Source: a virus
Lineage: Duplodnaviria; Caudoviricetes
Direction: 5' to 3' (one strand)
Virus record (IMG/VR): IMGVR_UViG_3300010376_000051
Coordinates: 1-47,555 of that record
DNA length: 47,555 nt
This document shows, piece by piece, positions 12,007-41,418 of this stretch (the stretch's first letter is position 1; every line of letters begins with the position of its first letter). Position numbers and translations under genes: made by a program. Below the pieces are notes generated by a model, which was given only the letters and a program-made list of their open reading frames with translations, searched no databases and had not been told where the DNA came from.

Positions 12007-12480
12007 TCATTTTACCTTCGGCAATAGCTGCTTGAGCGTTTCCAGCCCATCTGAAAACGACTGCATTGTGGTATTCTGTTTGTTGGCAATATCCGCAAGA
12101 GTATCGATCTTGGTCGCCAATGATAGAATTTTCTGCGCTGCGTCGTTCCGTTGGTCGACTATTTGGCTGCGAAGCTCCGTGTATTTGTTTTCTATATCAG
12201 CCCGGGTTTGAGTGTATCTGTCATCGCTCTGTGCTATGCGGTCTGTAAGCTGTATTTCAAGTTTACCGATGCGGACGGCGTTGTCATTCTCGGCTCGGGA
12301 AGCGCGGTCGTGCTCGGCTGTGACCGCAGCCAACAATGTTGCACTTTGCGCTGTTATGGTGTTGTCCAAGATCCACACAGCGCCTACGATGGCTACAACT
12401 ACAGATAGAATAACCGCCGCCGTTTGCGTCCACCCATTTAGCAGAGGTATGCCGCCGTTACTATTTCCGGCCGTCGGCAT
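12007..12480 (-). CDS. Single-TM coiled-coil protein, i-spanin-like candidate
   Basis: N-terminal TM (AAVILSVVVAIVGAVWIL) and a long heptad-like helix; directly after the endolysin. Confidence 0.55.
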   Translation of the reverse strand: MPTAGNSNGGIPLLNGWTQTAAVILSVVVAIVGAVWILDNTITAQSATLLAAVTAEHDRASRAENDNAVRIGKLEIQLTDRIAQSDDRYTQTRADIENKYTELRSQIVDQRNDAAQKILSLATKIDTLADIANKQNTTMQSFSDGLETLKQLLPKVK

Positions 12481-12518
12481 AGCTATTGCCTAAAAGGTGT
12501 CAACGAAACGTCCAAAAG

Positions 12519-13007
12519 CTACGTCAGTGGGGCGAAGGCGATGTCGGTCAGGCCGAGCGCTGCCATGAATTGGGTTTCGGTTGTTCGACCCAGGGGTGTG
12601 TTCCAAAATGCCTTGTAGTAGGCCCATAGGCCCGCTGGAGTGTGTGGTGGCAGGGGGTCGGGCACCTGCCAGTAGATCAGTCGGGCGCATGCTGCGGCGA
12701 GCACGAGATTGCCTGAGATTTGATCGATGATAGACGTGGGGACCGATGAGGCGAACTCGCTGATCGCCATCCGTTGATCAGAGCGAGCGCGCTGGAGGGC
12801 GCCTGCGAGCGTGTCGGGCTGGATCTGGAAGACAGACCGGGCAGGCCCCTCTATCTGGTCCAGGAACGTCCCCAGGTGGCTCTCGACGGCTGCCGTTGCC
12901 ATCAACAAGTCGGCCGCGACGAGGGTGGACGGGATGCCCGCCCTCGCCAGCGACACGAGCGCCGGTCTAATGGCGACGGCGCGGAACTGGATGGCGTCAA
13001 TCGTCAT
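12519..13007 (-). CDS. Putative endolysin (lysozyme / transglycosylase fold)
   Basis: LLMATAAVES (candidate catalytic Glu), GPARSVFQIQP, ARLIYW, YYKAFWNT. Start taken at ATG 13007. Confidence 0.75.
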   Translation of the reverse strand: MTIDAIQFRAVAIRPALVSLARAGIPSTLVAADLLMATAAVESHLGTFLDQIEGPARSVFQIQPDTLAGALQRARSDQRMAISEFASSVPTSIIDQISGNLVLAAACARLIYWQVPDPLPPHTPAGLWAYYKAFWNTPLGRTTETQFMAALGLTDIAFAPLT

Positions 13008-13173
13008 GGCACAATTCAGGTGTGCATGGAACCGTGACAACACGCTTCCGCCGCGAAAACCAACAACAACCACACAAGTTCTCGCTGCCGCCATCGTAAG
13101 GAGCGGGCTGCGGGTGCTCGCAGCGATGCGGGCAATGTTCGTGACCGGTGTTAGCCGCCACGTAGTGAGGCAT
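12997..13173 (-). CDS. Small Cys/His-rich protein (58 aa)
   Basis: TGATG coupling to the upstream lipoprotein; HEHCPHRCEHP...LCGCCW...PCTPELC; overlaps the endolysin start. Confidence 0.6.
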   Translation of the reverse strand: MPHYVAANTGHEHCPHRCEHPQPAPYDGGSENLCGCCWFSRRKRVVTVPCTPELCHDD

Positions 13174-13505
13174 CAGAACGGTAGTACCAAGTTGAATGGC
13201 GCCGGTATGGTCTTGCCGATGTCCTGGAGCAACATCGGGGCGATCACAGGACCGCACGCGGAAGCGACTGCTTGTTCGATGAGCCGCTTGCGCTCCTTCA
13301 GGACAAAGAGACCATCCTGGCTTGGGTTAGGCGTCGGCGAGGTCGCAGGGGCAAGCATCTGTAGACAGGTAGCTCCTGCAACGTCATTGCCTGCTTTGGC
13401 CAATGCCGCTGCATTGGAGATATCGCCGGAGACAAATTGTCCCAGCCCTCCGCTGGAGCAAGCGGCAAGCGCGCCCACGAGGCCGATAGTCGCGAGCCGG
13501 ATCAT
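13173..13505 (-). CDS. Lipoprotein
   Basis: MIRLATIGLVGALAA|CSS lipobox; two further Cys. Confidence 0.75.
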   Translation of the reverse strand: MIRLATIGLVGALAACSSGGLGQFVSGDISNAAALAKAGNDVAGATCLQMLAPATSPTPNPSQDGLFVLKERKRLIEQAVASACGPVIAPMLLQDIGKTIPAPFNLVLPF

Positions 13506-13769: not shown

Positions 13770-16136
13770 CTATGGCACCAAGACCGATGCAGCGGTGCTA
13801 ATATTATTGTTGCTGTCCATCACCCATAGATAGACTGTATTGCCGTGCGCGACGCCAGCTAGCTCTATTGGTGGAATCCAACTATTTGCTGCTGATGGCG
13901 GATAGGTGCCAGGAGCAGTGCTGCTCCAGAATGCGGTGTTGCCGCTCCATCGTGTATCTGACGCCAGCGGCGGCGTCGATGAAGTCGAGGCAAGCCATTG
14001 CACCGCACCATACTGCGCTGTAAAGCTAATCGCCGTAAACGGAACGGCGTAGGCGCCATTAGTGAAGTCATAGTATAGTGGTCCGATCGCGAAAGAACTC
14101 GTCGGCGGCGTAGTGAAACCGCTCGTGGCGCAACCAGTAACGGTGCCTGCGCCGCCAGCGCAGAAATTATTGGATTGTACCGGGCTTATCGTGGCCGAGT
14201 TGGTAAGATATTGGTTGCTCGGACTAGATAAATAGTTCTTTTGCCCGTTGAAACCCTGGACCAGAATTGGAATTGCCGTATAATTGCCTGAAAATGGATT
14301 CCCGAGCTTGCACAATATTCCCCAAGTGGGGCCGCCGGTCATTCGCAGCGCCGCCTGAGTCGAGCCCACAAGGCTATTATTCGTTACAAAGAAAGAATAA
14401 GATGCCGCGCTTTCGTTACAACTGGTATCAACAACAGTATTTATAGTCATTCCGACAACCGCGTTAGTACTAACGGAGCCCAACACCGTTTCTGTTCCTG
14501 GGCACGTGACGCCTGTGACTGTAATAGTGGAGGAATTCGCCGTGGCGGCTGTCCATTTATTATTATACCCCTGCGGGGAAAATCCAACAGTTAAGAATTG
14601 GTTTCCAGCCGATATGGTAGTGTTAGCTGCCGTAAAAGTGATAGTTCCACTAGTGCAAGAGGCCGCCGTCGCCTGCACGACTACCGCTGGCGCGCACGCT
14701 CCGGTTTCGCAAGCGGATATTTCGGCATCGCTGGCAATGATCTGGTTTCCGGTCCAGGACAAATCGCCGACGCCGCCCGAAGTGCCAGGATCGTTCAGCC
14801 CGCCGCCGGTGCCGAAAAAATGGTTAGGTGCATAGAACAGGCTATTAGTTACGGACGCATGAAGATCGCCGCTGCATTGACCGGTAGCCCCAGCCTGTGG
14901 GCAGTAGACGTTCGCCGGCCCTCCCACAGGCGAGCCCGTAAACCCAAATGCCGGAATAATAGCCGTGTCAGCGACTCCGTCGTTGTAATCATATTGTTGA
15001 TTACCAGTAAATGTCATACTCGACATAAATATTGGATTAAAGCCACCTTGATAGAATATATTATTTGATAGTGTTATGCCGCTGCTTTCTCCGTTAGCTT
15101 GGAATGTTTGTGAGTTATCATAAGTCGTACCACCTGAGTGAATTGGATCAGCGAACACACTATTATTTACTGCAACGCTATTGCTCTGAAACATATAAAA
15201 CTGCGCTTCGCCACTTATACTGGAATTGCTGAATGCCAAATGGCGGACATCATTGACTGTGATCGTATTGCAATTCTGGAAGTTTAGCAGGCCCCAAGTG
15301 CCGCCGCCATCTGTCGACTTCGAACCATCGAGAAAGATGTGGGCAACCGTGTCGGTATTACATGGTGAGATAAAAGAGATGGTTCCGGCGTGATGTGGGG
15401 CCGTCGCGTATGAATAACTCGTCCCGGTCGTGTAAACACACGTTATGCTCGTGCCCGCGGTCGGACACTGGTCAACCCCATTGATATTACTCACATGCCC
15501 CCAAACATCGAACGAATTCCCACTTCCGACACCTACGAGATTGATTGCCGTAGAGATGCTAACCTGAGAGCTATCAGCGGTACTGAGAGCCCAATTTCCG
15601 CCGGCGAGAAACACGGTATCGCCTGCGGCAGCCGCGTTCACCGCCGCTTGGATACAAGCGGCATGCCACGGACTGCCGGACGTGCCAGATCCGCCCCCAT
15701 TACCCGGACAGTAAGTTACTGCGGCATCTAGCTTGTGCCCTTCTGTGACAGTGAATTGCGTCGTCAATGATGCAAATCCCGTCGCGGCCGCCGTAATGCA
15801 AAGCGTATATGTACCAGCGGCAATCGTGTTCGTGTAAACATCTCCGCTAGTAATACTGAAATGTGTCGTATCCCCGCCGGAGCAACCTCCTCCAGACGCC
15901 ACTAGCGTATATGTTGGGCTTGTTAAATTGTTAAATGTCGGAGTCGCTGGCGACATGTTGGTGGTTAAGGTCCCTACGTAATAGGGTGCCGAAGCCGCGA
16001 ATTGAACCGTCGTCCCCGATAACTGCGTAGATAGAATTCCGCCAGCGCCTCCGCCGCCGTGATGTCTAAATGGATGAGCCTGCGCTATCGACAATAGCAC
16101 CAGCACTGCACAGAATGCAATATAACGCATTTTCAT
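13770..16136 (-). CDS. Signal-peptide-bearing beta-helix (pectin-lyase-like) protein with an Ig/cadherin-like N-terminal domain
   Basis: GAGG RBS. MKMRYIAFCAVLVLLSIAQA|H. GSGTSGSPW...IQAAVNAAAAGDTVFL beta-helix cap and N/S-rich rungs. 18 Cys in the mature chain (hand count). Confidence 0.75.
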   Translation of the reverse strand: MKMRYIAFCAVLVLLSIAQAHPFRHHGGGGAGGILSTQLSGTTVQFAASAPYYVGTLTTNMSPATPTFNNLTSPTYTLVASGGGCSGGDTTHFSITSGDVYTNTIAAGTYTLCITAAATGFASLTTQFTVTEGHKLDAAVTYCPGNGGGSGTSGSPWHAACIQAAVNAAAAGDTVFLAGGNWALSTADSSQVSISTAINLVGVGSGNSFDVWGHVSNINGVDQCPTAGTSITCVYTTGTSYSYATAPHHAGTISFISPCNTDTVAHIFLDGSKSTDGGGTWGLLNFQNCNTITVNDVRHLAFSNSSISGEAQFYMFQSNSVAVNNSVFADPIHSGGTTYDNSQTFQANGESSGITLSNNIFYQGGFNPIFMSSMTFTGNQQYDYNDGVADTAIIPAFGFTGSPVGGPANVYCPQAGATGQCSGDLHASVTNSLFYAPNHFFGTGGGLNDPGTSGGVGDLSWTGNQIIASDAEISACETGACAPAVVVQATAASCTSGTITFTAANTTISAGNQFLTVGFSPQGYNNKWTAATANSSTITVTGVTCPGTETVLGSVSTNAVVGMTINTVVDTSCNESAASYSFFVTNNSLVGSTQAALRMTGGPTWGILCKLGNPFSGNYTAIPILVQGFNGQKNYLSSPSNQYLTNSATISPVQSNNFCAGGAGTVTGCATSGFTTPPTSSFAIGPLYYDFTNGAYAVPFTAISFTAQYGAVQWLASTSSTPPLASDTRWSGNTAFWSSTAPGTYPPSAANSWIPPIELAGVAHGNTVYLWVMDSNNNISTAASVLVP

Positions 16137-16144
16137 TATATGCC

Positions 16145-17794
16145 TCACGGTATCGACGATATATGCCATGTAATATCCCACATAGCCGGAGCTGCTGTAA
16201 TTGACGCGCCACTAAGATTAGGCCATGTGCCAAACGTTTGCCCCATATACCCGATAAATCCATTTGTTGCATTGCGATTAGTATAGAACGACGCGGCCGT
16301 TGTGTTTACGCTTTCTAAAGGCTGGTAACCAAGATTTTGAGTGGGCGGGATCTGTCCATCAGCTACAGTAGAGCCGTTGTTGGTTATCGCACAAAACCAA
16401 TAATTACCTGGCGTAAGCGCAAATGGACCACCAGTTATGCTTCCAGTCACCGTTGCCGTCGACGTAGTAGCTATATTGCCCGTAGAACCAATAAGCGTAG
16501 ATGGCAAGCCGTTGGTTCCAGAATTATATATAGCCAATTGCGCATTAGAAGCCGCTTGTCCAGTTTCTATATTAAGACCAAGCGAATCGATGTGTACCGC
16601 AGCGTAGATCGTATTTGGCGAACAATAGATTTCCGTCGTGTTTTGCCCTTGCGTTGTGTTCAACCCCGCATGCGGCCACATCCCGTACCAGTCGCCCGAT
16701 ATATAGCCGCTGGTTGCTCCCACGGCAGCGCCAGTAGCAGCCACAGTCACTCGGCCAGCCGCATCGTAGGTGAGGTTGCAGGAAGTGCATGACCCAGCAG
16801 CAATGAGCGCCGGATTCGGTGAGACTGACAAATTGCCGGCCGATGACTTGTTAACAAGCGCCAGAAATCCCGAAGCTATTGTTACGCTAGCGCCAGCAGA
16901 CCCGCCATTTATCGCGTCAGCAGCATTCGGCGTTAGCGTCATCGATTGTCCAATCGTGTTGACGACTATACATCCATTTGTAGACAGGCCACTCGAAACT
17001 GGCAATGTCAGAGTTTGACTGCTGGTCGTGACTTCGAAAATGGCGCATGTCGACCACTGTGTGGCAGACACGGTCTGTGTCGTTCCCGCAACAACAGCCG
17101 TTTGTGGAACAGTCGCCAGCACATAACACGAACTCGCGCAAGCGGTAGCGGCACTCGTCGAATAGCTGACATAATACTCCAGTCCGCCGATGATCTCCCC
17201 GCCAATCAGCGCCGTGAGGCCAGAAGCGGTATTAGTAACCACAGGCAATGCACCGGTCGAATTAACGTTAAGCGTAGACGCTCCTGTATTTGTATTAGCA
17301 AACGTCGCAGCAATGACATACTGGTTAACAAGCGAATATCCTGACGGCGACGGCGAAAGTGTATAGGTATTCGTCCCGGACGCAGTCCCGACATATGTCA
17401 CGTAAGTTGCTCCGGCGCAGTCGCTTCCCGTCGCCGTAACCGCACCGGCGTTCGAGATATGAAGACATTGCGTCGATGCCGGTGCAGCCGGAAGTGTAAT
17501 GGGGCCACCAAGCGTTAAAGTAACCCCACTTATCTTGGTGATCGTCAACGCCCCACCAGCCGCCAGCGTAGCATCTCCCGAGACAGTCGCAGGCCCAACC
17601 GTGGTCGTAGTGGCACCCTGGTATTGAGCTACCGCCGGCGATGATCCGCTTTGAACAGTGCCGCTACCGCTCCCGCCACCACCCCCGCTCCCACCACTAA
17701 TGCCAATACCACTGCCTTCCCACTGTGCTGATGCAGGTGGGATGCTTAGTCCCAACAGGGCAACAACTACCTTGAACCATCGCGAGTATTTCAT
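16145..17794 (-). CDS. Signal-peptide-bearing tail-fibre-like protein
   Basis: MKYSRWFKVVVALLGLSIPPASA|Q, then a Gly linker. Fibre-type motifs ANTNTGASTLNVN and LTYDAAGRVT. 10 Cys. Confidence 0.7.
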   Translation of the reverse strand: MKYSRWFKVVVALLGLSIPPASAQWEGSGIGISGGSGGGGGSGSGTVQSGSSPAVAQYQGATTTTVGPATVSGDATLAAGGALTITKISGVTLTLGGPITLPAAPASTQCLHISNAGAVTATGSDCAGATYVTYVGTASGTNTYTLSPSPSGYSLVNQYVIAATFANTNTGASTLNVNSTGALPVVTNTASGLTALIGGEIIGGLEYYVSYSTSAATACASSCYVLATVPQTAVVAGTTQTVSATQWSTCAIFEVTTSSQTLTLPVSSGLSTNGCIVVNTIGQSMTLTPNAADAINGGSAGASVTIASGFLALVNKSSAGNLSVSPNPALIAAGSCTSCNLTYDAAGRVTVAATGAAVGATSGYISGDWYGMWPHAGLNTTQGQNTTEIYCSPNTIYAAVHIDSLGLNIETGQAASNAQLAIYNSGTNGLPSTLIGSTGNIATTSTATVTGSITGGPFALTPGNYWFCAITNNGSTVADGQIPPTQNLGYQPLESVNTTAASFYTNRNATNGFIGYMGQTFGTWPNLSGASITAAPAMWDITWHISSIP

Positions 17795-18123
17795 CTGGAA
17801 AAGTCCGTATTTCCTCTTGCCATGTTCCTCCGCATTTCATACACGCTTGGTTGATCCATCCGCTTGATCGGAACAAAAGGCACGTCCGCGTCTTCGTAGA
17901 CCGGCACGGCGGGTGGTGGAATATCGGATGGGGAAACGTATCGTCTATGATCGCGGTTTCGATCTTCTTTTGGCACGAGACCTTCGTGTATTCTCTCTTG
18001 GCGCAGTAGGCCGGCGCAGCGAAGAGAACAGCATTCACCTGCACGTTTCTTAGGGTGAAATGTCTTGTGACATGTCGGGCATTCTTTGGTCGGGATTGCC
18101 GGCCTACCCCCGCGGCGCATCAT
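17791..18123 (-). CDS. Zn-finger protein (HNH-associated type module)
   Basis: ATGA coupling at both ends; CPTCHKTF...CCSLRC. Confidence 0.65.
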   Translation of the reverse strand: MMRRGGRPAIPTKECPTCHKTFHPKKRAGECCSLRCAGLLRQERIHEGLVPKEDRNRDHRRYVSPSDIPPPAVPVYEDADVPFVPIKRMDQPSVYEMRRNMARGNTDFSR

Positions 18124-18557
18124 CCCTGCGCCCTCGGCGGTCGGAAGCACAAGATCATGCCATCGGGTGTCGATTGCACCCCACCGTAGGGGCCGTAGGA
18201 AGTCCCGAAGGGGTTCCGCGGAAACCAGCATGCCACCGCATCCAGCGGTCTCGGTTGGTCACTGGTATCGGGGATCACCTGCTTATCAGGTACCCGGAGC
18301 CACTTGTCCGGGGCTTGGTCACCGAACTCCGTCTTGGAGATGTAGACCCACCAGCCATCAAGATCGAGCCCATGGCCAGGGCTCTTCGAGTCGACCGCGT
18401 GGCAATCGGCGATGCCACAGCAGCTTTGCCCTATCGAGTTCTGAAGGCTGTTGAACCACGCCGCGTTGGGGGCATCCTTCGGATGAGCGACCGCGAGGGG
18501 CGGCAATGCCATCGCCCAAACTGCCGCAAATCCGAGATACTTCAAATAGGTTGGCAT
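18120..18557 (-). CDS. Secreted Cys-rich protein of a type I recall from Alphaproteobacteria
   Basis: Signal peptide MPTYLKYLGFAAVWAMALPPLAVA|H; WFNSL...SCCGIADC...W.RVPD..VI...AVACW...ILCF. Confidence 0.7.
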   Translation of the reverse strand: MPTYLKYLGFAAVWAMALPPLAVAHPKDAPNAAWFNSLQNSIGQSCCGIADCHAVDSKSPGHGLDLDGWWVYISKTEFGDQAPDKWLRVPDKQVIPDTSDQPRPLDAVACWFPRNPFGTSYGPYGGVQSTPDGMILCFRPPRAQG

Positions 18558-18721
18558 AGCTGCACCACCGGCCGAATTTGGTCGGCCCACCAACCCAAGA
18601 CAAACCGGCAAAACTGCATCAAGGTTTCGATGTCTTCTTTGCCGTTATAAACGGCCATGCAATGCTGGAAAAGGCTATGACCCTGGAGGGCCGCCAAGGC
18701 CGCTGCGTGTGCTGGGTCCAT
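18542..18721 (-). CDS. Hypothetical protein (59 aa, not in ORF track)
   Basis: GGAG RBS, MDPAHAAALAALQGHSLFQHC...LCQPI-stop; bridges the gap between neighbours. Confidence 0.5.
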   Translation of the reverse strand: MDPAHAAALAALQGHSLFQHCMAVYNGKEDIETLMQFCRFVLGWWADQIRPVVQLCQPI

Positions 18722-18899
18722 TCTGGTCTCCCAATTTAGGGATCACAACGTGGAATAGGGTCGCGGTCCCTGTTAGTGCTGTTGACACCGCTTCAAGATA
18801 GGGACGCAAGCCCGGTGGTACAACAGGAACAAATGCGGTAGCCCACACTGCTGCCACCATCAGCGACGACAGCGCGTAGGACCGGTACGTTTCGTTCAC
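18675..18899 (-). CDS. Small two-TM protein, holin-like candidate
   Basis: GTGA overlap with the upstream gene, two hydrophobic segments, polar tail. Confidence 0.5.
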   Translation of the reverse strand: MNETYRSYALSSLMVAAVWATAFVPVVPPGLRPYLEAVSTALTGTATLFHVVIPKLGDQNGPSTRSGLGGPPGS

Positions 18900-21049
18900 A
18901 TCCCACTCCCTTTGCAGCCGATACCGAAGGTGCCGTCCCCGGTGCAGCCACTAGGAGCTTGGGTCGGCGTTCCACTCGCGACGGTCGAGCCCGACTCTTC
19001 CCCTGCGCCCTGCGCTGCGGCCAACGTAATCGGTGAATTGTGCATGTCCTGGACGATGAACGCTTGCGACGCTCCATTGACGGTGTAGAACGAATTGTTG
19101 GTGGAGGAGTAGCTGGTCAATGTAGTAGTTGGGTTGCAATTGTTGCCGCCCAGTGAGCCATTTATACAGCCTGCTCCGTACCGCCACCCGCCTGCGAATG
19201 CGCCCCCGGTAGTGAGCACCACCACCGTGTTGCCTGTTCCTGAGTAGGTATATGAATGGCCGCCACAGTCATCGCCAGCCCCACCAAACCCACCCCGTTG
19301 ATCATCGCCCGTGCCGATCGCGGGAAAGCCGAGGTTCTCTGTGACGTAGTTGTTATTGGCAGTCATCGCATGACCACAGTCGCCGATAATCGCACCCTGG
19401 TATGGGGCAAGGCTGCCATGGCCGGGTGCGATACAAACATTATGAGTGAACGTTCCAGGGTTAGTTACCGTCTCATAACGAATGCAGGACGAACCGATAT
19501 TTATCATAGTGTCGCCAGTGACGGTGAAATTACCAGAGAACACATCTGCCCATGTCGCGGCGGCATATCCCAATTGATCGTGATGGTAGCCACCGGTTTC
19601 GACGAGCGAAGCTGCTCCAGCCATCTTATATGATGCGCAATTGCCGCCGCCACCCGCTACATTGCAGTCAGTCGACCCGTCTTGAAACTGCGAATTGCCC
19701 GTAAATTCCATCCCATTTAAAGTTTGAGTGCCAGAGGCACCTTGGGGTGACAGTCCTTCAAACGAGTTGCCTGTCACTAGATCATTGCTGAGCGTTTGCG
19801 AACCGCCGTGTAGACCAATCCCAATGCCACAACTAGGCCCAATGGTCGACCCGGTAATCACCCATCCGGTGTTTGTGTTAAATTCTACTGTCTGCGGAGC
19901 GCGATTGTTAACGGCAGGGCAATTGCCATTGTACCCATACCGCTTGACCGTGATGCAGCGGATGGTGAAATTCAGCGTTATGTTTGAGACAGAAGCACCA
20001 TCGGGGAATATTTGGTTCTGCGCATTTTGCCCGTCGAAGATGGTGTTAGCTCCGTTGGGACTCGCACAGTTCCCTTGCAGCACGGTGTTGCTAGACGAGT
20101 TACCGATACCAGGCGAGAAGATCATTTGGTTGCAGGTTGTGGTCGGAAGCACATAGGTCGTGTTCGCGGCGAGGATTGGTACGCCGAAGGGGCCGGCTGG
20201 CAAGGCCGCAATGCTTGCACACGTGGCACTAACAATCGTCCCGCTTTGTCCGGTGCCCGACAACGAGAACGCCGGAGCCGATCCAGCGGTGAAGGCGACA
20301 TTCAAATTGGCGCTTTCGGAGCCGGTTGTCGACGGCGAGAAGATGATCCAAATATAGCATCCTGAATTGTTTGCGAGTACGCCACTGCAATTCGTAGTAG
20401 CAGTGGAAAAGTCACCCGCGTTGGTGCCGGAATAAGTGATCGACGAGAACGTTAGGCTGCCCCCATTTTTATTGTAGACCATCACCCGTTCGGGTTCGCT
20501 TGTCGCTTTGGGCGCACTAGCTGAGCCGGCGATCGCATAAGGGAAAGCTAGCGATGAAAGCGTGTCAGCCAGACTACCATCAGCCTTGGCCGCATTGTCC
20601 GAGGTAAAGGCCACCGTAACGCCACTGGGATTAGTGCCAGTCCCGCTGAGCGAGGCGGTATTGGCGCTGCTGGTAGGGACCGAAAGCGTCGCCGTCCGGG
20701 ACCCTGTCGCACTCGGTGTAAACGTGACCGAGACAGCGCAATGAGCACCCACCGCAAGTGAAGTTGGACATGTGTTGGTTTGACTGAAATCAGCCGCGTT
20801 TGTCCCGGTGATGCTGATGGTCGGGATCGAGTAGGCCATCGTCCCGACATTTGTCGCGGTGACGTTCTGGACGGCGCTGCTGGTGTTAATGGCTTGATTG
20901 CCGAAGTTCACGCTTGTTGGGCTTAAGCTCAACGCCAATGAAGAGGGCGAAGCACCGACATGGCCAATATAGGCATAGATGGATATCGCTAGAGCATGAT
21001 GATACGTGAGACAAAGCAGAGCGCTCGCTACGACTATCCATCGTCGCAT
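18896..21049 (-). CDS. Signal-peptide-bearing protein with two ASH / choice-of-anchor-D Ig domains and a beta-helix
   Basis: TGATG coupling. MRRWIVVASALLCLTYHHALA|I. LSPTSVNFG...GTNAADFSQTNTC...CAVSVTFTP plus a second similar copy. 20 Cys. Confidence 0.8.
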   Translation of the reverse strand: MRRWIVVASALLCLTYHHALAISIYAYIGHVGASPSSLALSLSPTSVNFGNQAINTSSAVQNVTATNVGTMAYSIPTISITGTNAADFSQTNTCPTSLAVGAHCAVSVTFTPSATGSRTATLSVPTSSANTASLSGTGTNPSGVTVAFTSDNAAKADGSLADTLSSLAFPYAIAGSASAPKATSEPERVMVYNKNGGSLTFSSITYSGTNAGDFSTATTNCSGVLANNSGCYIWIIFSPSTTGSESANLNVAFTAGSAPAFSLSGTGQSGTIVSATCASIAALPAGPFGVPILAANTTYVLPTTTCNQMIFSPGIGNSSSNTVLQGNCASPNGANTIFDGQNAQNQIFPDGASVSNITLNFTIRCITVKRYGYNGNCPAVNNRAPQTVEFNTNTGWVITGSTIGPSCGIGIGLHGGSQTLSNDLVTGNSFEGLSPQGASGTQTLNGMEFTGNSQFQDGSTDCNVAGGGGNCASYKMAGAASLVETGGYHHDQLGYAAATWADVFSGNFTVTGDTMINIGSSCIRYETVTNPGTFTHNVCIAPGHGSLAPYQGAIIGDCGHAMTANNNYVTENLGFPAIGTGDDQRGGFGGAGDDCGGHSYTYSGTGNTVVVLTTGGAFAGGWRYGAGCINGSLGGNNCNPTTTLTSYSSTNNSFYTVNGASQAFIVQDMHNSPITLAAAQGAGEESGSTVASGTPTQAPSGCTGDGTFGIGCKGSGM

Positions 21050-23652
21050 CAGCACACCCCGGCGGTTTGGCTGAAGCACGGCAGAGAAACTTTGATCCCG
21101 CTGACGCCATCGCCTGTGTAGACAGAAGTGTTACCCGTCGCCAGAGCGATATTGAAAACAGCGCCCGACGCGTCTGCTTTCCCATAGCTCCAGGTAAGGC
21201 TTAACTTCCACCAACCGCCATATCGAGTAGAGGTTCCGGTGAGGCCGCTGAAGGTTGGTGCCCCGCCTGTGATCACCGCCGCTTGGGTTATAGCCCCTGT
21301 GTTGGCATCGATGACCATGTTGGCTGCTTGCGACTGTGCATTGTCTTGAATGACGATCCCACATTGGCGATTGCCCGTAAGAGGGGCACAAAGGTAACTC
21401 GCGTAAGCGGTCGCATTCGAGACGCTTGTTGTCCCATCTTTGATGGCATTATTGGCGGAACCCGATGCTTCGACGAATGTCGTACCGTTTGTGTTGCACG
21501 ACGGGTCCCATTGGCTACTTATTGTCTTGGTCCCGCCAAGGACAGTCCAGTTGGCGTTTATAATCGGGTCGCTAATTTTGTTGTTGGCGGCAGTGATAAC
21601 GACTGGATTGCACGCTGCGTTAGCATTCAGCGAAGGCAGAATGATGTATGTCTGCGGGCTGGTGGCTGAGACTTCTACCCAATCCGTTTCTTGGTTGTCG
21701 TGGGCAGTGTAACAGGGGGATACCGAGAGTGCCGTCGTGCTCAGCGGCACTCCGAGGAGCGACCCAGCGGCGGGGCCGCAGATGGACATCAGGCCGGGGC
21801 CTTGGGATGCGAACGCGAACGGGGTGTTGATAACAGGGCCGCTGGATGGCAGGGTTATTGAAGCGCCGCCGGCCGGAGCCTGAACGGGGACGATCTGCTG
21901 GGCGTAGGTAGGCCAGTTCCCGGAGGTGATCGTCACGTTTCCGGTGATCGCGGCACCCACGGCAACCGCGGACGGCGGTGCTAGGATCGGGACGTAGTTG
22001 CCCGAACCGTCAGTGAAGATTTGGACCGAAGCGCCAGGCAGTACGATGACTGTGTTGCTGGCAGTGATCGGAGAGGTTCCCTGAGTTCCCCAGGTGGCGC
22101 CAGCACCAAGCGCAATGGTCGCAGAGGCAGAAGAACCCGAGACCGGGACTTGGATGGTGACTGCTGAACCGGCCGGGAAATAGGTGGGCGAGCTTTGATT
22201 GATAGTGATCGTCCCCCCACCAGTGACCGGGATGATACCGTTGTTATCACTGCCACTCGCCGTGCATTGGGTTGAGCCGGTGTAGACCAGTGTGTATGAG
22301 GCCCCGCCTACTGCTGTGCATACAAAGACTGGCGTCGACACACCAGTAACCCACGTATCATCCGAGCGGAGGAAGAGGGTTGGCGTCGCACCCGGTGATG
22401 GGACACAGCCGGAAAGGGTCGAAGTAAAGGTCTGGCACAAAGTCGTGAGTTGGGTCGTTGTGAGGGCTGATGGCACTCCTGTACCGGCAGCGACTCGACC
22501 GAGGACCGTGTTGGTAGCGATGTTGGGGAATTGAGCGAGCGTGGCTTGACCCGAGATGTCAGTGAATGCAGGCTGGCTCGCGACCGGCACCCCCGAGGTC
22601 GAGATCGAGTTGATCCACTGGGACGTGGTCAACGCCAGGGACTCGACACCACCAAGGGTGCTAGCGCTTGGATTGGGCAAAACCGTTGATGTTACGAGCC
22701 CACCTGCGGTCAACTGGAGCAGCTTGTTAGCGCCCGTTAGGCCATAGGCAAGGGCCGCGCTCGGACACGTCGAGATACCTGAAGTATTCGCAAGAACACT
22801 ATTTGCTGCGATGGATGTTAAAGCGAAGTTGGAACCGGTTAATGTGATCCCACAATTGGCTGTGAATGCTGCCTGACCAATCTGAACCCATGTGATTGCA
22901 GTGGTGCCGACCGTGATGACTGCACTCTGGTTCATCCAGAATTGAGTTCCGGCCGCGTTCGCGGTGCCCGCGCCAGTGTTCAACACAGCTGCACCGATGG
23001 CTATGCCACCGGACGTAGCAGTTTGGAAGTCAGTAGCGCGGGTCAAAATCCACGGCTGTGAAGCTCCCGTGATCTGGGTGAGACTGTAAATCCCGTTTTG
23101 CGCCGGCGCCGCCTGATTTTGCACCAATACGCGTTGGCCCGCCGTATTTACAGTGATGCCGTCCACTACCAAAGCGGTGTTGTTGACGTTCGCAGTTAGG
23201 GTCGATGCGAATGGTGGACCAGAACCATTGACATAGGTTGGGCTGTTGGGCAACACAGCGGCCGTCGCCGCCATAACAGCCGCATGCCATGTTGTGGTGA
23301 CAGTACCAACACTGTCCACATAGCTTTTGGTTGCTGCGTCACTGGCGTTGGTCGGCGCGGCAAGACCGGTGATCGTCCCGCCGGTGAACGCCACGTTGGG
23401 CGACGACAAACCGGTGCTGAAATTGGTGTTTTGGGTTATTGTGGTGGGTAGGCTGAGGATCACATTGCCCGATGTGGGGACAGCTGTGACTTGACCAGAT
23501 GTCCCGGTCACACTGCTAACACCGGCTACTCCGCCGCCCCCACCGCCACCACCCCCACCACCACTGAATAACCCGCCGCCGAGGAATTGGGCCTGTGCAT
23601 GGACGCAAAACATCCACACCAGGACGAAGACGAGGATACGTTTCACCATCAT
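21049..23652 (-). CDS. Signal-peptide-bearing tail fibre / head fibre-like protein
   Basis: MMVKRILVFVLVWMFCVHAQA|Q, then poly-Gly. Phage fibre motifs PTNASDAATKSYVD and DG...GQRVLVQNQ...QNGIY...WILTRATDF. 14 Cys. Confidence 0.8.
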   Translation of the reverse strand: MMVKRILVFVLVWMFCVHAQAQFLGGGLFSGGGGGGGGGGGVAGVSSVTGTSGQVTAVPTSGNVILSLPTTITQNTNFSTGLSSPNVAFTGGTITGLAAPTNASDAATKSYVDSVGTVTTTWHAAVMAATAAVLPNSPTYVNGSGPPFASTLTANVNNTALVVDGITVNTAGQRVLVQNQAAPAQNGIYSLTQITGASQPWILTRATDFQTATSGGIAIGAAVLNTGAGTANAAGTQFWMNQSAVITVGTTAITWVQIGQAAFTANCGITLTGSNFALTSIAANSVLANTSGISTCPSAALAYGLTGANKLLQLTAGGLVTSTVLPNPSASTLGGVESLALTTSQWINSISTSGVPVASQPAFTDISGQATLAQFPNIATNTVLGRVAAGTGVPSALTTTQLTTLCQTFTSTLSGCVPSPGATPTLFLRSDDTWVTGVSTPVFVCTAVGGASYTLVYTGSTQCTASGSDNNGIIPVTGGGTITINQSSPTYFPAGSAVTIQVPVSGSSASATIALGAGATWGTQGTSPITASNTVIVLPGASVQIFTDGSGNYVPILAPPSAVAVGAAITGNVTITSGNWPTYAQQIVPVQAPAGGASITLPSSGPVINTPFAFASQGPGLMSICGPAAGSLLGVPLSTTALSVSPCYTAHDNQETDWVEVSATSPQTYIILPSLNANAACNPVVITAANNKISDPIINANWTVLGGTKTISSQWDPSCNTNGTTFVEASGSANNAIKDGTTSVSNATAYASYLCAPLTGNRQCGIVIQDNAQSQAANMVIDANTGAITQAAVITGGAPTFSGLTGTSTRYGGWWKLSLTWSYGKADASGAVFNIALATGNTSVYTGDGVSGIKVSLPCFSQTAGVC

Positions 23653-24017
23653 TTGTAGTATGAAACGTTGCAGGTTGCAGAGGCAGTCGCTTGTATTATC
23701 TGGACCACCGATAGCGGCTTCTCCGCGAAGACGATTTGGGTGTTGGTGTTCAGCGGCATCCCGATCGAAGCCGTGGGCGCTGTACCGTCATCCCTCCAGT
23801 TCACCATCTGCCCGGTGCAAAGAACCACCGCATAGATGGCGTTGGAGGGGATGCTGGGCAGCGGAGTTGCAGTAGCCAGCGAGGTCATCTGTTGATAACC
23901 AAGCGGTATGGTCAAGTACGGGGCGCCCATTACAGTAGGCCCAGGTGCCACAAAGCTCTGGGCCTGGGCGACGCCCATGAAGCTCAGCAAACACAGGAAA
24001 GGCGCTAGAAATCGCAT
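23649..24017 (-). CDS. Signal-peptide-bearing small virion-type beta protein (122 aa)
   Basis: GGAGG-like RBS region and TGATG coupling. MRFLAPFLCLLSFMGVAQA|Q. LGYQQ...WRDDGTAPTASIGMPL...NVSYY. 2 Cys. Confidence 0.7.
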   Translation of the reverse strand: MRFLAPFLCLLSFMGVAQAQSFVAPGPTVMGAPYLTIPLGYQQMTSLATATPLPSIPSNAIYAVVLCTGQMVNWRDDGTAPTASIGMPLNTNTQIVFAEKPLSVVQIIQATASATCNVSYYK

Positions 24018-27000
24018 CACTTCTGGAGTTCCTTTGTGAGTGCCTGAACAGCGCCGATCAGCTTCGCGATGACGCATTCTTGCCGATAGCTCTTGGGTGT
24101 CTTGCCGTCTTGCTCGTAGATGGCACACTCAGGCATGTCATGCGCCACGTTCTCCGCGGTGAGCCCATATTGCGGTTTGTTGAAGTTCCAATCCGCATTT
24201 GGCTTCTCGCGATCTTTCATCTTGAAGAAGGCGGGTTGGATGGCGCGCACCTGCTGTAAGTCGTTTTGAGGGGTGAATGGGTTGGGAAGTAGGTCCTTGA
24301 AGCGCAAACTGGAGATCGTACACGCACTTGTTTGGATGAGGAAAACGCCGCTCGCCGAAAGGCACAAGAAGTCCGCGTTGGTCCCGGTCGAGAGGGCTGG
24401 CGCCTGGACGTTTGTGGTGCCAGTCGGGATCTGGAAGACAGCGGTGCCCGCGTTGTTGGCCAGCTTGATGTCCGTTGAGGAACCTGAACCGGCCATCAAT
24501 AAGCCGCCGGTCGTGCTAGACCCAATCACACCCTCATTGTTGGCAGCAGTTGCGGGCAAGCTGCCCCCACCACCTACAACGACCTGCCCTGCGGCCGGCG
24601 CGCTCGGGGTCAAACTGGCGGTGAACTGGCCGCTACCTTGCAGATCAACCAAATAAAGGAATGGAGCCGTCCCGGTAGCGTTCCGATAGCAGTCCAATTC
24701 ATATTGGTGGTTCATTATTGGGGTAAATGGTGATGTGATGGTCTGACCGGATTGATACACCGTTGGGTTGCCACCCCATGTCAGTGACGCTCCACTAACC
24801 GCGTTTCTCTCTGTAAAACGCACTCGCCACGCTGTGTTGTTGAATGCTTGCGACACATTGCTGCAAATAGTGCTTGGGATCGTCAGTGTGACGCTGTTAA
24901 CGGTAATGTCGAAGTCGGTCCCGGCGTCGGTCTCTGCGAAGGTGTAGTTGGCCGCCAATCCCATCACCGGCCACTCGGCTTCGTAGAGCCCACCAGTAGC
25001 GAGGTTGAACCCCTGCGGAAACAAGCATGGGTGTTGGGTGTTGTTACACAACGCCGGATTATCGCTCAACGAAATTGTCGCCAGCTGTTGCAGTGTAAAC
25101 TCTTTCCACGAGCCGGTACCACCTGCGGTAAACGCAAGCGCATTGACAGGACTTGAGTTGGTTCCCTGGGAGAATGGTGCAATGCCTATACGATTGGTAC
25201 TTGTAGTGACGACTTCCGTGTAGGCCCAAATCATATTGTTGGGCGCATAGAAGCCTTGGTTGGAGTTGTTGCCCAGGGGGATACTGATGAGTTGAAAGTT
25301 GGGGTTGGTTTCGTTGACGTTGAAGAACTCAAATTGTCCCATCGCGCCAGCGTAGTTGGTGAAGATTGTTTTGTCCGACGCATCCATCATGATCGCCGAG
25401 GCGACGTTTAGCTCCCCACTGCCGACCGGGAAGTTGTTGAAGAAGGCGCTGTCAGGGCCGCCGAAGTAGAATGCGGCCGAGTTTGGATCGGCCATAATCG
25501 GTGCGATCCCGCCGTTCCATACGTTGTCCACGAAATAGGATTGGCCGGAACAGCCATGATAGATAGCTGCCCCATAGTGATTGCCGGCCGCGGGGTAGTT
25601 GTCGTCTGCTTTGATCTGGCTGTCCGTAAGATGCAAACCGCAGTTCGTGTCGCTTGTTTTGATACCGTTGGAGTCCATGAAGAAGTTTAGCGTTGCTCCT
25701 GAGAAGCTGGTGGGTGGCGCCTTGTTGAGCACATATTTGTTGGTGGTGGTGTTGCACCCCACAATCACAGTCCGGTCGAGGACGTTTGGAGAATTGCCCC
25801 TCGATATCAAGCCGACGTTGGTGTTGATGTTGTTGCAGCCACCCGATACTGTCAGATCAAGGCCCACTACCGTGATAGATTCCGAGCCGACTGCTGGCGT
25901 GGTGGTGTAGTTCTGGACCGTGTAGGTGCCAGTATTGAATGCGGTCACCCCACTGTTCACCGACCCACCCACAGATTGGATGTAGGTGCCTGCGGGTATG
26001 CCGGCGCCGACAAGGCTATCGCCCGGATAGATGGATGCGTTTGTCGCGGTAACTGTCATGGTGCAGATGAACGGGGCCGAGCCGCTACAAGATGCGATCG
26101 AGGCGGTGATCGTCGCTTGCGTATTCGACGCAGCGGCGGTGAAGGTGGCATTGGGAGTGGCATTGGTGCCCATCCAATTATTCACCCGCATGTGGTGCCA
26201 GCGTGTGGTCCCGTTGACACTCACATACCACACATTGATAGGCAGATCGGCACCATCGAAGCGATCGTAGGAAGAACCAGATGCGGTAGGCGTCACCAAA
26301 TCCACAAGGCCGTGGTTGGCCAAAGGCATGTTAGCATAACAGAGCGCGGTGATGTTGGTGTTGGCTAAAACAACGCTGAGCACCTTGACCGGGGACGAGC
26401 AAGCACCATAGATGAGACCAGCGCCGTTGACCTCAGTCAGCCCTTTGTCACCACTCCCATTTACCGAAGCTGCGTAGGAGATAGTAGAATTAAGCGCGGC
26501 GGCGTCGTCATGCCCATACCACAACGTTTGCGATATGGCAGTGGAGAATGTGGGGCACGGCAAAGATACGGTTATATCGGCGGCATCTGTGAATGCTGAG
26601 ATGGTGCCTACGTAGGGCAAGCCATTTGCCGCGCCAGTGATAGCATCGGTGATGGTTATGTTCTTGCCAACGTCGCCGGAAGTGAATGTAGCCGAGGGGA
26701 CGTTGATATTGCAGTTGCCACTACTGATGTTGGCGACAGCACTGAACGAGGTTACGTCGCCGTAAGCACCCCATGCACGGGGGTCCATGATGGAGCGGGG
26801 AGCGGCGATCCAACACTTGCTATCGGCGCTGGGAACTTGGGAGCCGACATCGCCACCTATGATCGAGCAGGCGCTGCCCGATGATAGAAACATGGTACAT
26901 GGGCTGTCACCAGCCGCCCGAACCCCACACCGCATAGCACGGGTGGTTGTCACCGTGGATAGCGCCATGAGCGCCGCGTTCGTGCTGAGATACGGGATAG

Positions 27001-27484
27001 TGGCTACAGCACCACCGCCGATTTGGGTCGTGACATATCCCACCGTGGCGATTTCATTCGATGGAGCACCCAATCCGGGTGCTGGCGCCGTGGGGATACC
27101 GAGCAGTCCAACACCGCTGGCTGTGCTGCTCTCAATCTGCGTGTTGTTGATGTACCGGTTGTAGGGGAGCGCGCTGGCGCCGCTGTAGGCGTTGAACGTC
27201 TCTAGCGCACCGCCCAGCGAGTTGGCACCAAAACAGAGTTGGTGGAAGCCGCCGGGCGCCGAAATCAGGGCATCGTTGATGCAAAGGGGCGTCCCGGTGT
27301 TGGTCAGCGTAAGCTGAGAGAACCCACCCTGCGCCTCGGCATCCCCAATCGCACCATTGAAGAGCCACGCCGCTCCATGGTGGTAGGTGATGTTGCCCGA
27401 CTGGAAGACAGGCTGGTTAGTCTGCGCCCTAGCACCTACCGACACCAAGAGCGCAAGAACAAACGCCAGTAAACGATAGCGCAT
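24017..27484 (-). CDS. Signal-peptide-bearing tailspike/fibre with C-terminal peptidase S74 intramolecular chaperone
   Basis: MRYRLLAFVLALLVSVGARA|Q. Tailspike cap DPRAWGAYGD...DDAAALN. S74 motifs SSLRFKD...YGLTAENV...PE...LIGAVQAL. 24 Cys. Confidence 0.85.
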   Translation of the reverse strand: MRYRLLAFVLALLVSVGARAQTNQPVFQSGNITYHHGAAWLFNGAIGDAEAQGGFSQLTLTNTGTPLCINDALISAPGGFHQLCFGANSLGGALETFNAYSGASALPYNRYINNTQIESSTASGVGLLGIPTAPAPGLGAPSNEIATVGYVTTQIGGGAVATIPYLSTNAALMALSTVTTTRAMRCGVRAAGDSPCTMFLSSGSACSIIGGDVGSQVPSADSKCWIAAPRSIMDPRAWGAYGDVTSFSAVANISSGNCNINVPSATFTSGDVGKNITITDAITGAANGLPYVGTISAFTDAADITVSLPCPTFSTAISQTLWYGHDDAAALNSTISYAASVNGSGDKGLTEVNGAGLIYGACSSPVKVLSVVLANTNITALCYANMPLANHGLVDLVTPTASGSSYDRFDGADLPINVWYVSVNGTTRWHHMRVNNWMGTNATPNATFTAAASNTQATITASIASCSGSAPFICTMTVTATNASIYPGDSLVGAGIPAGTYIQSVGGSVNSGVTAFNTGTYTVQNYTTTPAVGSESITVVGLDLTVSGGCNNINTNVGLISRGNSPNVLDRTVIVGCNTTTNKYVLNKAPPTSFSGATLNFFMDSNGIKTSDTNCGLHLTDSQIKADDNYPAAGNHYGAAIYHGCSGQSYFVDNVWNGGIAPIMADPNSAAFYFGGPDSAFFNNFPVGSGELNVASAIMMDASDKTIFTNYAGAMGQFEFFNVNETNPNFQLISIPLGNNSNQGFYAPNNMIWAYTEVVTTSTNRIGIAPFSQGTNSSPVNALAFTAGGTGSWKEFTLQQLATISLSDNPALCNNTQHPCLFPQGFNLATGGLYEAEWPVMGLAANYTFAETDAGTDFDITVNSVTLTIPSTICSNVSQAFNNTAWRVRFTERNAVSGASLTWGGNPTVYQSGQTITSPFTPIMNHQYELDCYRNATGTAPFLYLVDLQGSGQFTASLTPSAPAAGQVVVGGGGSLPATAANNEGVIGSSTTGGLLMAGSGSSTDIKLANNAGTAVFQIPTGTTNVQAPALSTGTNADFLCLSASGVFLIQTSACTISSLRFKDLLPNPFTPQNDLQQVRAIQPAFFKMKDREKPNADWNFNKPQYGLTAENVAHDMPECAIYEQDGKTPKSYRQECVIAKLIGAVQALTKELQK

Positions 27485-27485
27485 C

Positions 27486-28544
27486 CTAGAACTCGTTGGC
27501 TGCGAAGGTGGCAGTCGTGATCGTCGCCGTGCCGCTGGTGATATTCTGCACCGATAGATCGAACCAAACAGCGGTGCTCAAGGTCAAACCACTGATAACG
27601 CCTTCGCACACGAAAGGCACTTTCTCGGTGGTGGACGCGGCGTTGATGAACTGGACGCCAGCCCCATCTTGGGTGCCAGTCAAAGCGGCATTATTGGCAG
27701 GAGCCGTACCGGTGCCATGACTGCATGTCAAAGTGACACCGCTGCCAGAAGTGCCAACGTTGACAGTGCCGGTGATAGAGTACGCAACACGCCCCGTCAC
27801 GACCGGCGTCAATGTGGCTGGATTGGTGGCACCACCTAGACCCAACATCACCGCCGCACCGGTAGCACCCGAGATGCCGGATTGGTTGGATGGCTTGGTC
27901 ATCGCGAAAGCAGGCGTTCCACATGCTGGTGCCCCGGCACTGCCATACGCGAGTTGGCCGGCAGTGCATGCCGCAAGAGCCGTGGGGGTCGCACCCGCGC
28001 CACCACCAATGACGAAGCCGTTGAGGGTCAGGGCGGCCGAGGATGCGATCGTGCCGGACGCGGTGAACCCCAGGATGCCACCCGACGTACCTGACGTAAG
28101 GCCGGTGCCACCGTTGGCCACAGGGGTCGTACCCGAGCTACCGCTGGCCTTGCTGTACAGCCCAATCCAGTTGCCGGCGCTGTCCTGGCGGATCTGCGCC
28201 GCCGACCCACCGTTAATAACCAGCGTCGAACCGCCATTGATGGTTGGAGCAGCACCACCGCCAACTACGGGAGCAGAAGGTGTGACAGTGACCGCCCCGG
28301 CGCCTTGTGCATACACAAAGACGTTGAAGTCCTGCTGGAAGCCACCTTGAGTTCCTGGCGCGGGTAGCGACACAGCAATGGACGAGCCGGACGTGAACAC
28401 AAGCCCGTTACAACCGTCAAGCTGCCCAATGGTGTATGAAGTTCCGGTGACGATCTTCCCGGTGCCAGGGACGCCAACACTACAGCCGGCCCACGCCGTC
28501 ACCGGGGCGAGCACCAGCAGCAAAGCAAGCAGAAAACGCTTCAT
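27486..28544 (-). CDS. Signal-peptide-bearing tail-fibre-like protein
   Basis: GGAGG RBS. MKRFLLALLLVLAPVTAWA|G. PVANGGTG fibre repeat. 6 Cys. Confidence 0.75.
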   Translation of the reverse strand: MKRFLLALLLVLAPVTAWAGCSVGVPGTGKIVTGTSYTIGQLDGCNGLVFTSGSSIAVSLPAPGTQGGFQQDFNVFVYAQGAGAVTVTPSAPVVGGGAAPTINGGSTLVINGGSAAQIRQDSAGNWIGLYSKASGSSGTTPVANGGTGLTSGTSGGILGFTASGTIASSAALTLNGFVIGGGAGATPTALAACTAGQLAYGSAGAPACGTPAFAMTKPSNQSGISGATGAAVMLGLGGATNPATLTPVVTGRVAYSITGTVNVGTSGSGVTLTCSHGTGTAPANNAALTGTQDGAGVQFINAASTTEKVPFVCEGVISGLTLSTAVWFDLSVQNITSGTATITTATFAANEF

Positions 28545-34627: not shown

Positions 34628-34754
34628 GCTTCTTTCCCAACTTCAGCTTGGTCTTGGGCTTACCGGCATGCATTTCCGCTTCATGTTGATGCACGCCCTT
34701 TCGGACTTTCTCGTTGACCGCTTTCTTAGATGTCTTCTTCCGGGTTGCCATCAT
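34617..34754 (-). CDS. Small Lys/His-rich protein (45 aa, not in ORF track)
   Basis: AGGAG RBS; MMATRKKTSKKAVNEKVRKGVHQHEAEMHAGKPKTKLKLGKKRGT. Confidence 0.75.
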   Translation of the reverse strand: MMATRKKTSKKAVNEKVRKGVHQHEAEMHAGKPKTKLKLGKKRGT

Positions 34755-34762
34755 TCTGTCTC

Positions 34763-39445: not shown

Positions 39446-39446
39446 C

Positions 39447-41412: not shown

Positions 41413-41418
41413 CCATCC

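What the first reader, a model, noticed from the sequence alone, without database searches (positions are those of the whole stretch)
13770..28544. Complete phage fibre/spike set appears to be Sec-exported and disulfide-bonded
Seen in sequence: all seven fibre/spike/adhesin-like ORFs (starts 28544, 27484, 24017, 23652, 21049, 17794, 16136) begin with a basic n-region, hydrophobic h-region and AxA cleavage site. The mature chains have 6, 24, 2, 14, 20, 10 and 18 Cys by hand count, always even and mostly in near-neighbour pairs. Capsid, scaffold, adaptors, nozzle and ejection proteins have no signal peptide and few Cys. I see no signal-less tail fibre in the window. Established: tailed-phage fibres normally fold and attach in the cytoplasm through an N-terminal anchor domain. 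Inference: these appendages are exported, oxidised in the periplasm and joined to particles at or after lysis. Alternatively they form a phage-encoded cell-surface or extracellular structure. This is the best candidate for an undescribed system here.
Basis: partly seen in the sequence, partly recalled or inferred. Interest (0 to 1): 0.92.

Follow-up and report, generated by a model that had tools for sequence, protein, structure and literature searches.

The report
Phage fibres built for periplasmic export
A short-tailed phage puts bacterial secretion-type signal sequences and paired cysteines on seven fibre-, spike- and decoration-like proteins, while signal-less relatives of the same domains lack the cysteine pairs, so these proteins likely fold in the periplasm and would join the cytoplasm-built particle only at or after lysis, a route I did not find described for tailed phages.

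Summary
Observation confirmed: seven ORFs (28544-13770, minus strand) between ejection and lysis genes carry Sec/SPI-type leaders (own heuristic; no SignalP here) and 6, 24, 2, 14, 20, 10, 18 mature Cys. Leader and Cys pair go together in homologues: the N-terminal domain of the 1155-aa fibre has the pair in 90 of 90 leader-bearing and 0 of 6 leaderless homologues (two tree events), and is predicted to trimerise (0.95 vs control 0.00). Five of the seven carry domains also found in leaderless phage fibres or a capsid-adjacent protein; one carries bacterial surface-protein domains and one has no match. Export and disulfide folding are well supported; attachment to virions is untested. 'No signal-less fibre' is too strong: the window is a fragment with leaderless candidates, and several relatives keep leaderless fibres as well. 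Cultured BcepC6B gp19 and PBR31 gp35 have the same leader-plus-paired-Cys make-up and allow a direct test. The scan noted this on other DNA before (58 AI notes); ten literature searches found no description. Best reading: exported appendages that dock after lysis (0.58).

The parts
27486..28544 (-). 352-aa leader-bearing fibre-like protein; N-terminal ~110-aa domain also found leaderless in G001 and G002; 6 mature Cys
24017..27484 (-). 1155-aa leader-bearing fibre/spike: N-terminal 'TPGH' domain (res 21-130, Cys68/Cys84, predicted trimer), weak S74 chaperone match at the C-terminus; 24 mature Cys
23649..24017 (-). 122-aa leader-bearing version of a small phage protein family whose leaderless member lies two ORFs after the major capsid gene in MW202577.1 (likely head decoration); Cys67/Cys116
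21049..23652 (-). 867-aa leader-bearing fibre; res ~80-300 shared with leaderless fibre/decoration proteins of cultured phages (phrog_2647); 14 mature Cys
18896..21049 (-). 717-aa leader-bearing protein with two choice-of-anchor D (Ig-like) domains, typical of bacterial secreted proteins; 20 mature Cys
16145..17794 (-). 549-aa leader-bearing fibre; res 137-213 match domain 2 of the leaderless post-nozzle fibre of relatives, a gene this phage lacks; 10 mature Cys
13770..16136 (-). 788-aa leader-bearing low-charge protein, no family match; 18 mature Cys
18120..18557 (-). small leader-bearing ORF inside the cluster, 5 mature Cys, not fibre-like
30219..43337 (-). leaderless podovirus core upstream: major head (phrog_9953), post-capsid low-charge protein, two adaptors, nozzle with insertion, ejection-type proteins; context and candidate docking surfaces
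12007..13505 (-). lysis region downstream: Rz-like spanin (phrog_2466) and a lipoprotein-type ORF, indicating a two-membrane host with a periplasm

Best explanation
Seven late-region genes of this podovirus-type phage encode fibre-, spike- and decoration-like proteins with Sec-type leaders and paired cysteines; they are predicted to be exported, cleaved, trimerised and oxidised in the host periplasm, and most likely dock on finished particles when lysis mixes periplasm and cytoplasm. Shown by sequence and calls: leaders, Cys pairing, position between ejection and lysis genes, shared domains with leaderless phage appendages, coupling of leader and Cys pair. Predicted by a model: trimer of the N-terminal domain. 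Inferred from established knowledge: SecYEG/signal peptidase I export and DsbA-type oxidation. Inferred and untested: docking on the particle through the conserved N-terminal domains (TPGH, the 28544 domain, the 122-aa protein), with the remaining proteins hung on by short N-terminal peptides and Gly linkers; role in host or matrix recognition. The likely gain is disulfide-stiffened appendages and the ability to recruit host secreted domains that only fold outside the cytoplasm.
For: (1) TPGH domain: Cys pair in 90 of 90 leader-bearing and 0 of 6 leaderless distinct homologues; the leaderless state needs 2 changes on the tree; L056 holds both forms side by side. (2) 122-aa family: 10 of 10 leader-bearing rows have even mature Cys, 7 of 10 the same pair; 0 of 3 clearly leaderless rows and not the MW202577.1 homologue. 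(3) 28544 domain: N-terminal Cys pair in 4 leader-bearing proteins, not in the 2 leaderless ones. (4) Virion-type ancestry: 18 phage records; 4 of 4 cultured homologues checked are leaderless with 0-2 Cys; post-nozzle fibre domain; capsid-adjacent homologue; 10 of 78 TPGH homologues carry PF13884 S74. (5) Homotrimer model 0.95, best control 0.00, runs agree in at least 82% of contacts, pLDDT at least 71; mark reached by 20 of 30 solved pairs and 1 of 23 single chains. In the monomer model (pLDDT 83.5) the two Cys lie on consecutive strands. (6) The window and near-complete G003 lack the family's leaderless post-nozzle fibre and G003 has no other leaderless fibre-like gene besides the post-capsid protein and nozzle. 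(7) 13.7 kb of coding DNA, genes abutting or overlapping, spanin downstream. (8) Same domain in a second podovirus layout, between head region and adaptors (L061).
Against: No virion proteome, no docking partner identified, no SignalP run, no Cys-Cys distance measured. G005, G007, G008, L056 keep leaderless fibre-like genes beside exported ones and the G009 fragment has only leaderless ones; BcepC6B has a leaderless fibre (gp18) next to gp19, so exported forms can be accessory or off-particle. Two of the seven have no phage-type domain. P0091 has the Cys pair without a called leader (possibly a truncated gene call). Leaderless Cys-rich proteins exist (G005 846 aa, 14 Cys; G009 1049 aa, 11 Cys). 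9 of 90 leader-bearing TPGH proteins are odd. P22 tailspike has eight Cys, all reduced (PMC3357383, passages), so parity alone proves nothing. The 6 leaderless domains are only two events, on a quick tree with few columns.
Confidence: 0.58

Rival explanations
1. The proteins are exported and oxidised but never join the particle: they are released at lysis as free adhesins, decoys or matrix-degrading enzymes that help progeny escape or disperse.
For: Two of seven resemble bacterial secreted proteins or nothing; further exported non-fibre ORFs in the early region (DUF4082 protein 2836-4713, Npun_F0296-domain protein 579-1133); leaderless fibres coexist in several relatives and in BcepC6B.
Against: Does not explain why a capsid-adjacent protein family and N-terminal domains of leaderless virion-type proteins were given leaders and kept, nor what recognises the host in G003 and this phage.
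Confidence: 0.2
2. They build a phage-encoded structure on the surface or in the periplasm of the infected or lysogenic cell (adhesin, receptor mask, superinfection block), as Bdellovibrio MAT fibres or prophage Eib/Lom proteins do.
For: MAT proteins show that signal peptide + conserved N-terminal beta domain + S74 + disulfides make cell-surface fibres (PMC10769870, passages). BcepC6B and PBR31 are annotated with integrases.
Against: No lipobox, no outer-membrane anchor family and no clear transmembrane segment in the seven; genes lie in the late run between ejection and lysis genes; the window encodes its own DNA polymerase and primase.
Confidence: 0.15
3. The leaders are not used for export (internal starts, or hydrophobic N-termini with another role); the fibres assemble in the cytoplasm and disulfides form after lysis as proposed for Jabs and Milano.
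For: Virion disulfides without export are known (Jabs preprint 10.64898/2026.07.24.740622 and PMC10172136, passages). Several of the seven starts have weak Shine-Dalgarno matches.
Against: Leader sequences vary freely while n/h/c layout and the cleavage motif are kept in about 90 homologues; Gln at +1 in 35 of 51; no usable internal start; Cys pairs track the leader, whereas core proteins are Cys-poor.
Confidence: 0.07

Closest known systems
Podovirus tail fibres/tailspikes and head decoration proteins (P22 gp9, T7 gp17, K1F endosialidase with S74; T4 Hoc/Soc, lambda gpD; names and their late, in-vitro attachment recalled, not from a call)
   Same: Gene slot between ejection and lysis genes, low-charge beta-rich mosaic chains, shared domains, predicted trimer, weak S74 match.
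   Different: Known ones have no signal peptide and fold in the cytoplasm; P22 tailspike Cys are reduced. No known anchor domain matched.
Bdellovibrio bacteriovorus MAT fibres (PMC10769870; abstract and passages seen)
   Same: Signal peptide followed by a conserved ~130-aa beta-rich domain, trimeric mosaic fibre, S74 in a subset, disulfides.
   Different: Chromosomal, displayed on the predator cell surface; no sequence or fold match of the TPGH domain to solved chains.
Disulfide-linked virions: Jabs, Milano, Pam3 (as cited in the Jabs preprint, passages) and crAss001 (PMC10172136, passages)
   Same: Disulfides in tailed-phage particles, including fibre hubs; where they form is stated as an open question.
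   Different: Cys are in core proteins and proposed to oxidise at or after lysis; 'signal peptide' occurs 0 times in the Jabs text and 'signal' 0 times in the crAss001 text. Here core proteins are Cys-poor and only leader-bearing appendages are Cys-rich.
BcepC6B gp19 (NC_005887) and PBR31 gp35 (MT119766), cultured podoviruses
   Same: Leader, 4 and 2 mature Cys, slot before the holin; C-terminal domain shared with L056 exported fibre and G001 leaderless protein.
   Different: Single small exported protein beside a conventional spike gene; annotated only as tail fibre / putative structural protein; the PBR31 paper's main text mentions a signal peptide only for gp40 (PMC10975493, passages; supplements not seen).
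Prophage-encoded surface proteins Eib and Lom; filamentous phage coat proteins (recalled)
   Same: Phage genes whose products use Sec.
   Different: Eib/Lom stay in the outer membrane via a barrel anchor, not found here; inoviruses assemble wholly at the membrane without lysis.

Membership tests
Sec/SPI substrate | basic n-region, hydrophobic h-region, small residues at -3/-1, no lipobox or Tat motif | tested here: met
   7 of 7 by heuristic; 0 of 3990 internal windows; SignalP not available
Sec/SPI substrate | export and cleavage in the cell | not testable with these tools
   needs fusions or N-terminal mass spectrometry
Disulfide-bonded periplasmic protein | conserved Cys pairs tied to export | tested here: met
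   90 of 90 vs 0 of 6; 7 of 10 vs 0 of 3
Disulfide-bonded periplasmic protein | paired Cys within bonding distance | tested here: inconclusive
   consecutive strands in model; coordinates not returned; single-sequence model of the 352-aa protein failed
Phage tail fibre/tailspike | trimeric elongated chain | tested here: met
   N-terminal domain of the 1155-aa protein only: 0.95 vs 0.00; a model, other six not tested
Phage tail fibre/tailspike | cytoplasmic synthesis without signal peptide | tested here: not met
   all seven have leaders
Phage tail fibre/tailspike | known N-terminal virion anchor domain | tested here: inconclusive
   no significant match
Phage tail fibre/tailspike | present in purified virions, binds host receptor | not testable with these tools
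   uncultured phage; no close cultured relative
Peptidase S74 chaperone fibre | C-terminal PF13884 domain | tested here: inconclusive
   E 0.006, 17.3 bits, below the 22-bit cut-off; 10 of 78 homologues annotated PF13884
Bdellovibrio MAT family | MAT N-terminal domain after the signal peptide; chromosomal, surface display | tested here: inconclusive
   same layout, no match to solved chains; MAT N-domain sequences not compared; here phage-encoded
Trimeric autotransporter / outer-membrane adhesin (Eib type) | C-terminal outer-membrane anchor | tested here: not met
   no such Pfam or NCBIfam hit in the seven

The most novel reading that the evidence does not exclude
Tailed phages of this soil lineage assemble in two compartments: the particle is built in the cytoplasm, its whole host-recognition and decoration outfit is stockpiled, trimerised and disulfide-locked in the periplasm, and the virion becomes infectious only when lysis lets the two meet; in this phage and G003 there is no other fibre, so infectivity depends on host Sec and Dsb.
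Probability: 0.45. Interest if true: 0.93.

Novelty: new variant of a known kind. Interest (0 to 1): 0.8.

Why it matters
Tailed-phage morphogenesis is taken to be wholly cytoplasmic. An exported appendage set would add a post-lysis maturation step, make host Sec/Dsb and the mode of lysis determinants of progeny infectivity, give one answer to where virion disulfides form (stated as open in the Jabs preprint), and explain how phages recruit secreted bacterial domains as adhesins. It also means annotation pipelines may misfile such genes as morons, and receptor-binding proteins of this class may need periplasmic expression to fold. Two cultured phages make it testable now.

Tried and rejected
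No cultured close relative: capsid finds only two 35-36% metagenomic records; fibre domains find nothing useful. No PDB sequence match. Fold searches of the TPGH model gave no significant match (best Z 3.0; weak top rows were phage fibres, not counted). Single-sequence model of the 352-aa protein failed (pLDDT 35). ESM Atlas: 1155-aa N-terminus only 0.79; 122-aa protein 0.94 to unnamed viral clusters. Promoter/terminator scan at chance level. No leaderless copy of the TPGH or 28544 domain in six frames of the window, so docking via a co-encoded leaderless twin is rejected for this window. Internal starts bypassing the leaders: none with a Shine-Dalgarno match. The profile search of the 1.84-billion library could not be run, so family size is a lower bound. 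Host: one 43% nozzle relative in an Acetobacteraceae MAG contig, a hint only. Papers checked without bearing: PMC11924767 (0 hits for six terms), PMC13001222, PMC13412088 (dsbA effects read as receptor effects), 10.1101/2025.11.20.689424. Literature searches listed no paper describing exported tail fibres (listings and abstract starts seen; open-licence library only). No fibre-to-particle complex was modelled.
Full report
Setting. The window is the whole of a 47,555-base virus record. Its right arm runs on the minus strand from scaffold and major head protein (phrog_9953) through a post-capsid low-charge protein, two adaptors, a nozzle with an inserted beta-rich region and three Cys-free ejection-type proteins to the cluster in question and a lysis region with an Rz-like spanin; the left arm holds DNA polymerase, primase, kinase and exonuclease. 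The functional labels adaptor, nozzle and ejection rest on gene order, weak PHROG hits and my recall of podovirus layout. Terminase and portal are missing, and near-complete relatives are 60-66 kb, so this is a fragment. The spanin implies a two-membrane host; the only host hint is a 43% nozzle relative in an Acetobacteraceae MAG contig.

Observation. All seven ORFs start with an n/h/c leader ending in A-x-A and have 6, 24, 2, 14, 20, 10, 18 mature Cys. No SignalP is available; a heuristic called 7 of 7, none with lipobox or Tat motif, and 0 of 3990 internal windows. 37 of 47 consecutive Cys pairs are within 30 residues, and no internal start with a Shine-Dalgarno match follows a leader. Thirteen core ORFs have no leader and 0-5 Cys. 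Two other leader-bearing ORFs of the window have odd counts (9 and 5).

Relatives. Twenty loci with a related capsid were found; ten records were read whole and eight further loci of the 10 and 1 were read. Among low-charge proteins on the morphogenesis strand, 42 of 44 leader-bearing ones from 15 records have even mature Cys, against 33 of 83 leaderless ones with at least one Cys; median Cys per 100 residues 1.9 versus 0.58; 35 of 51 leader-bearing proteins begin with Gln after cleavage (ten rows excluded as lipoprotein, membrane, truncated or mis-started). These rows are related, so the p-values are not independent tests.

Natural experiments. (a) The N-terminal 110 residues of the 1155-aa protein ('TPGH' domain, my label) have 78 homologues plus those in the loci. 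After removing duplicates, partial hits and two broken rows, 90 of 90 with a leader have the Cys68/Cys84 pair and 0 of 6 leaderless ones do; the leaderless state needs two changes on a quick tree, nested among leader-bearing rows. L056 encodes both forms side by side. 81 of 90 have even mature Cys. (b) The 122-aa protein: of 14 aligned rows (14 hits, one near-copy left out, plus the query), 10 have a leader and all have even mature Cys, 7 the same pair; 3 clearly leaderless rows lack it; P0091 has the pair without a called leader and may be truncated. A leaderless homologue with one Cys lies two ORFs after the major head gene of MW202577.1. (c) The N-terminal domain of the 352-aa protein occurs in four leader-bearing proteins with an N-terminal Cys pair and two leaderless ones without it.

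Are they virion-type? Residues ~80-300 of the 867-aa protein match 18 phage records, several annotated tail fibre or head decoration; the four cultured homologues checked are leaderless with 0-2 Cys. Residues 137-213 of the 549-aa protein match the second domain of a leaderless post-nozzle fibre present in nine related records and absent here. The 1155-aa protein ends in a sub-threshold S74 match, and 10 of 78 homologues carry PF13884. Its N-terminal domain models well (pLDDT 83.5; Cys on consecutive strands), has no solved relative and is predicted to trimerise: 0.95 against best control 0.00, contacts agreeing at 82% or more, pLDDT at least 71, mark reached by 20 of 30 solved pairs and 1 of 23 single chains. 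The 717-aa protein instead has two choice-of-anchor D domains and the 788-aa protein no match; these may be captured secreted proteins. Twelve of 31 other leader-bearing proteins begin with a short peptide and a Gly- or His-Gly-rich stretch, possibly docking tags; untested.

Is the exported set the only one? In the window no leaderless copy of the two N-terminal domains exists. G003 (98% complete) has four exported proteins and no leaderless fibre-like gene besides the post-capsid protein and nozzle; G001 (98%) has one 260-aa leaderless protein and one long exported fibre. But G005, G007, G008 and L056 keep leaderless fibre-like genes too, and the G009 fragment shows only leaderless ones. The post-capsid protein and the nozzle insertion could serve host recognition here.

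Cultured handles. Following an earlier AI note I checked BcepC6B gp19 and PBR31 gp35: both have a leader and 4 or 2 mature Cys and share a C-terminal domain with proteins of this family; BcepC6B gp18 beside it is leaderless.

Mechanism. Most likely the chains go through Sec, are cleaved, trimerise and are oxidised in the periplasm during late infection, then bind finished particles when the membranes fail. That P22 tailspike, T4 fibres and decoration proteins attach to finished particles in vitro is recalled, not from a call (search 111 gave no passage). Export and oxidation are strongly implied; docking is inference (0.58). Rivals: free released adhesins or enzymes (0.20), a cell-surface structure (0.15), leaders unused (0.07).

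Known systems. Bdellovibrio MATs combine signal peptide, N-terminal beta domain, S74 and disulfides on the cell surface (PMC10769870, abstract and passages). Virion disulfides are known without export and their origin is called open (Jabs preprint, passages; crAss001, passages). P22 tailspike Cys are reduced (PMC3357383, passages). Ten searches of the open library listed no paper on exported tail fibres; subscription papers and supplements were not seen. The scan's own notes hold 58 findings with the same words in other genomes, none on look-alike DNA; they are leads, not support.

Verdict. Real, conserved, and not found in print; export well supported, virion attachment untested. New variant of a known kind, interest 0.8; categorically new two-compartment assembly if attachment and dependence are shown (probability 0.45, interest 0.93).

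Noticed in passing
window 579-1133 (+) and 2836-4713 (+): Two more leader-bearing ORFs in the replication arm: an Npun_F0296-domain protein and a DUF4082 protein with a possible hydrolase domain (9 Cys, odd); look like captured bacterial secreted proteins.
   Followed up: partly
window 6680-8404 and 8970-9692 (+): DNA polymerase A is split in two ORFs with a dNMP kinase between; the first part has an N-terminal UDG-like domain.
   Followed up: no
window 28550-29510 (-): Several tiny, highly basic ORFs and a leader-bearing WXXGXW-repeat protein (28923-29213) sit just before the cluster.
   Followed up: no
window 46121-47509 and 44023-44505 (-): Leaderless proteins upstream of the scaffold: a Pro/Trp-rich repeat protein whose C-terminal domain and neighbour have homologues in the tail module of G005.
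   Followed up: partly
G004 59573-60052, G005 1574-2065, G006 ~51060-51533, G007 24506-25000: Short (~160 aa) leaderless proteins sharing only the first ~30 residues of the TPGH domain lie directly before the exported fibre; possible cytoplasmic adaptors. Absent from the window.
   Followed up: partly
G007 22534-23889 (-), G004 19587-20738 (+): Leaders with twin-arginine-like motifs, suggesting Tat export of some members.
   Followed up: no
G001 25241-28399: Four adaptor paralogues in tandem where the window has two: ring number varies in the family.
   Followed up: no
L061 1474-7432: A different podovirus layout carries four leader-bearing proteins, two with the TPGH domain, between head region and adaptor genes.
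   Followed up: partly
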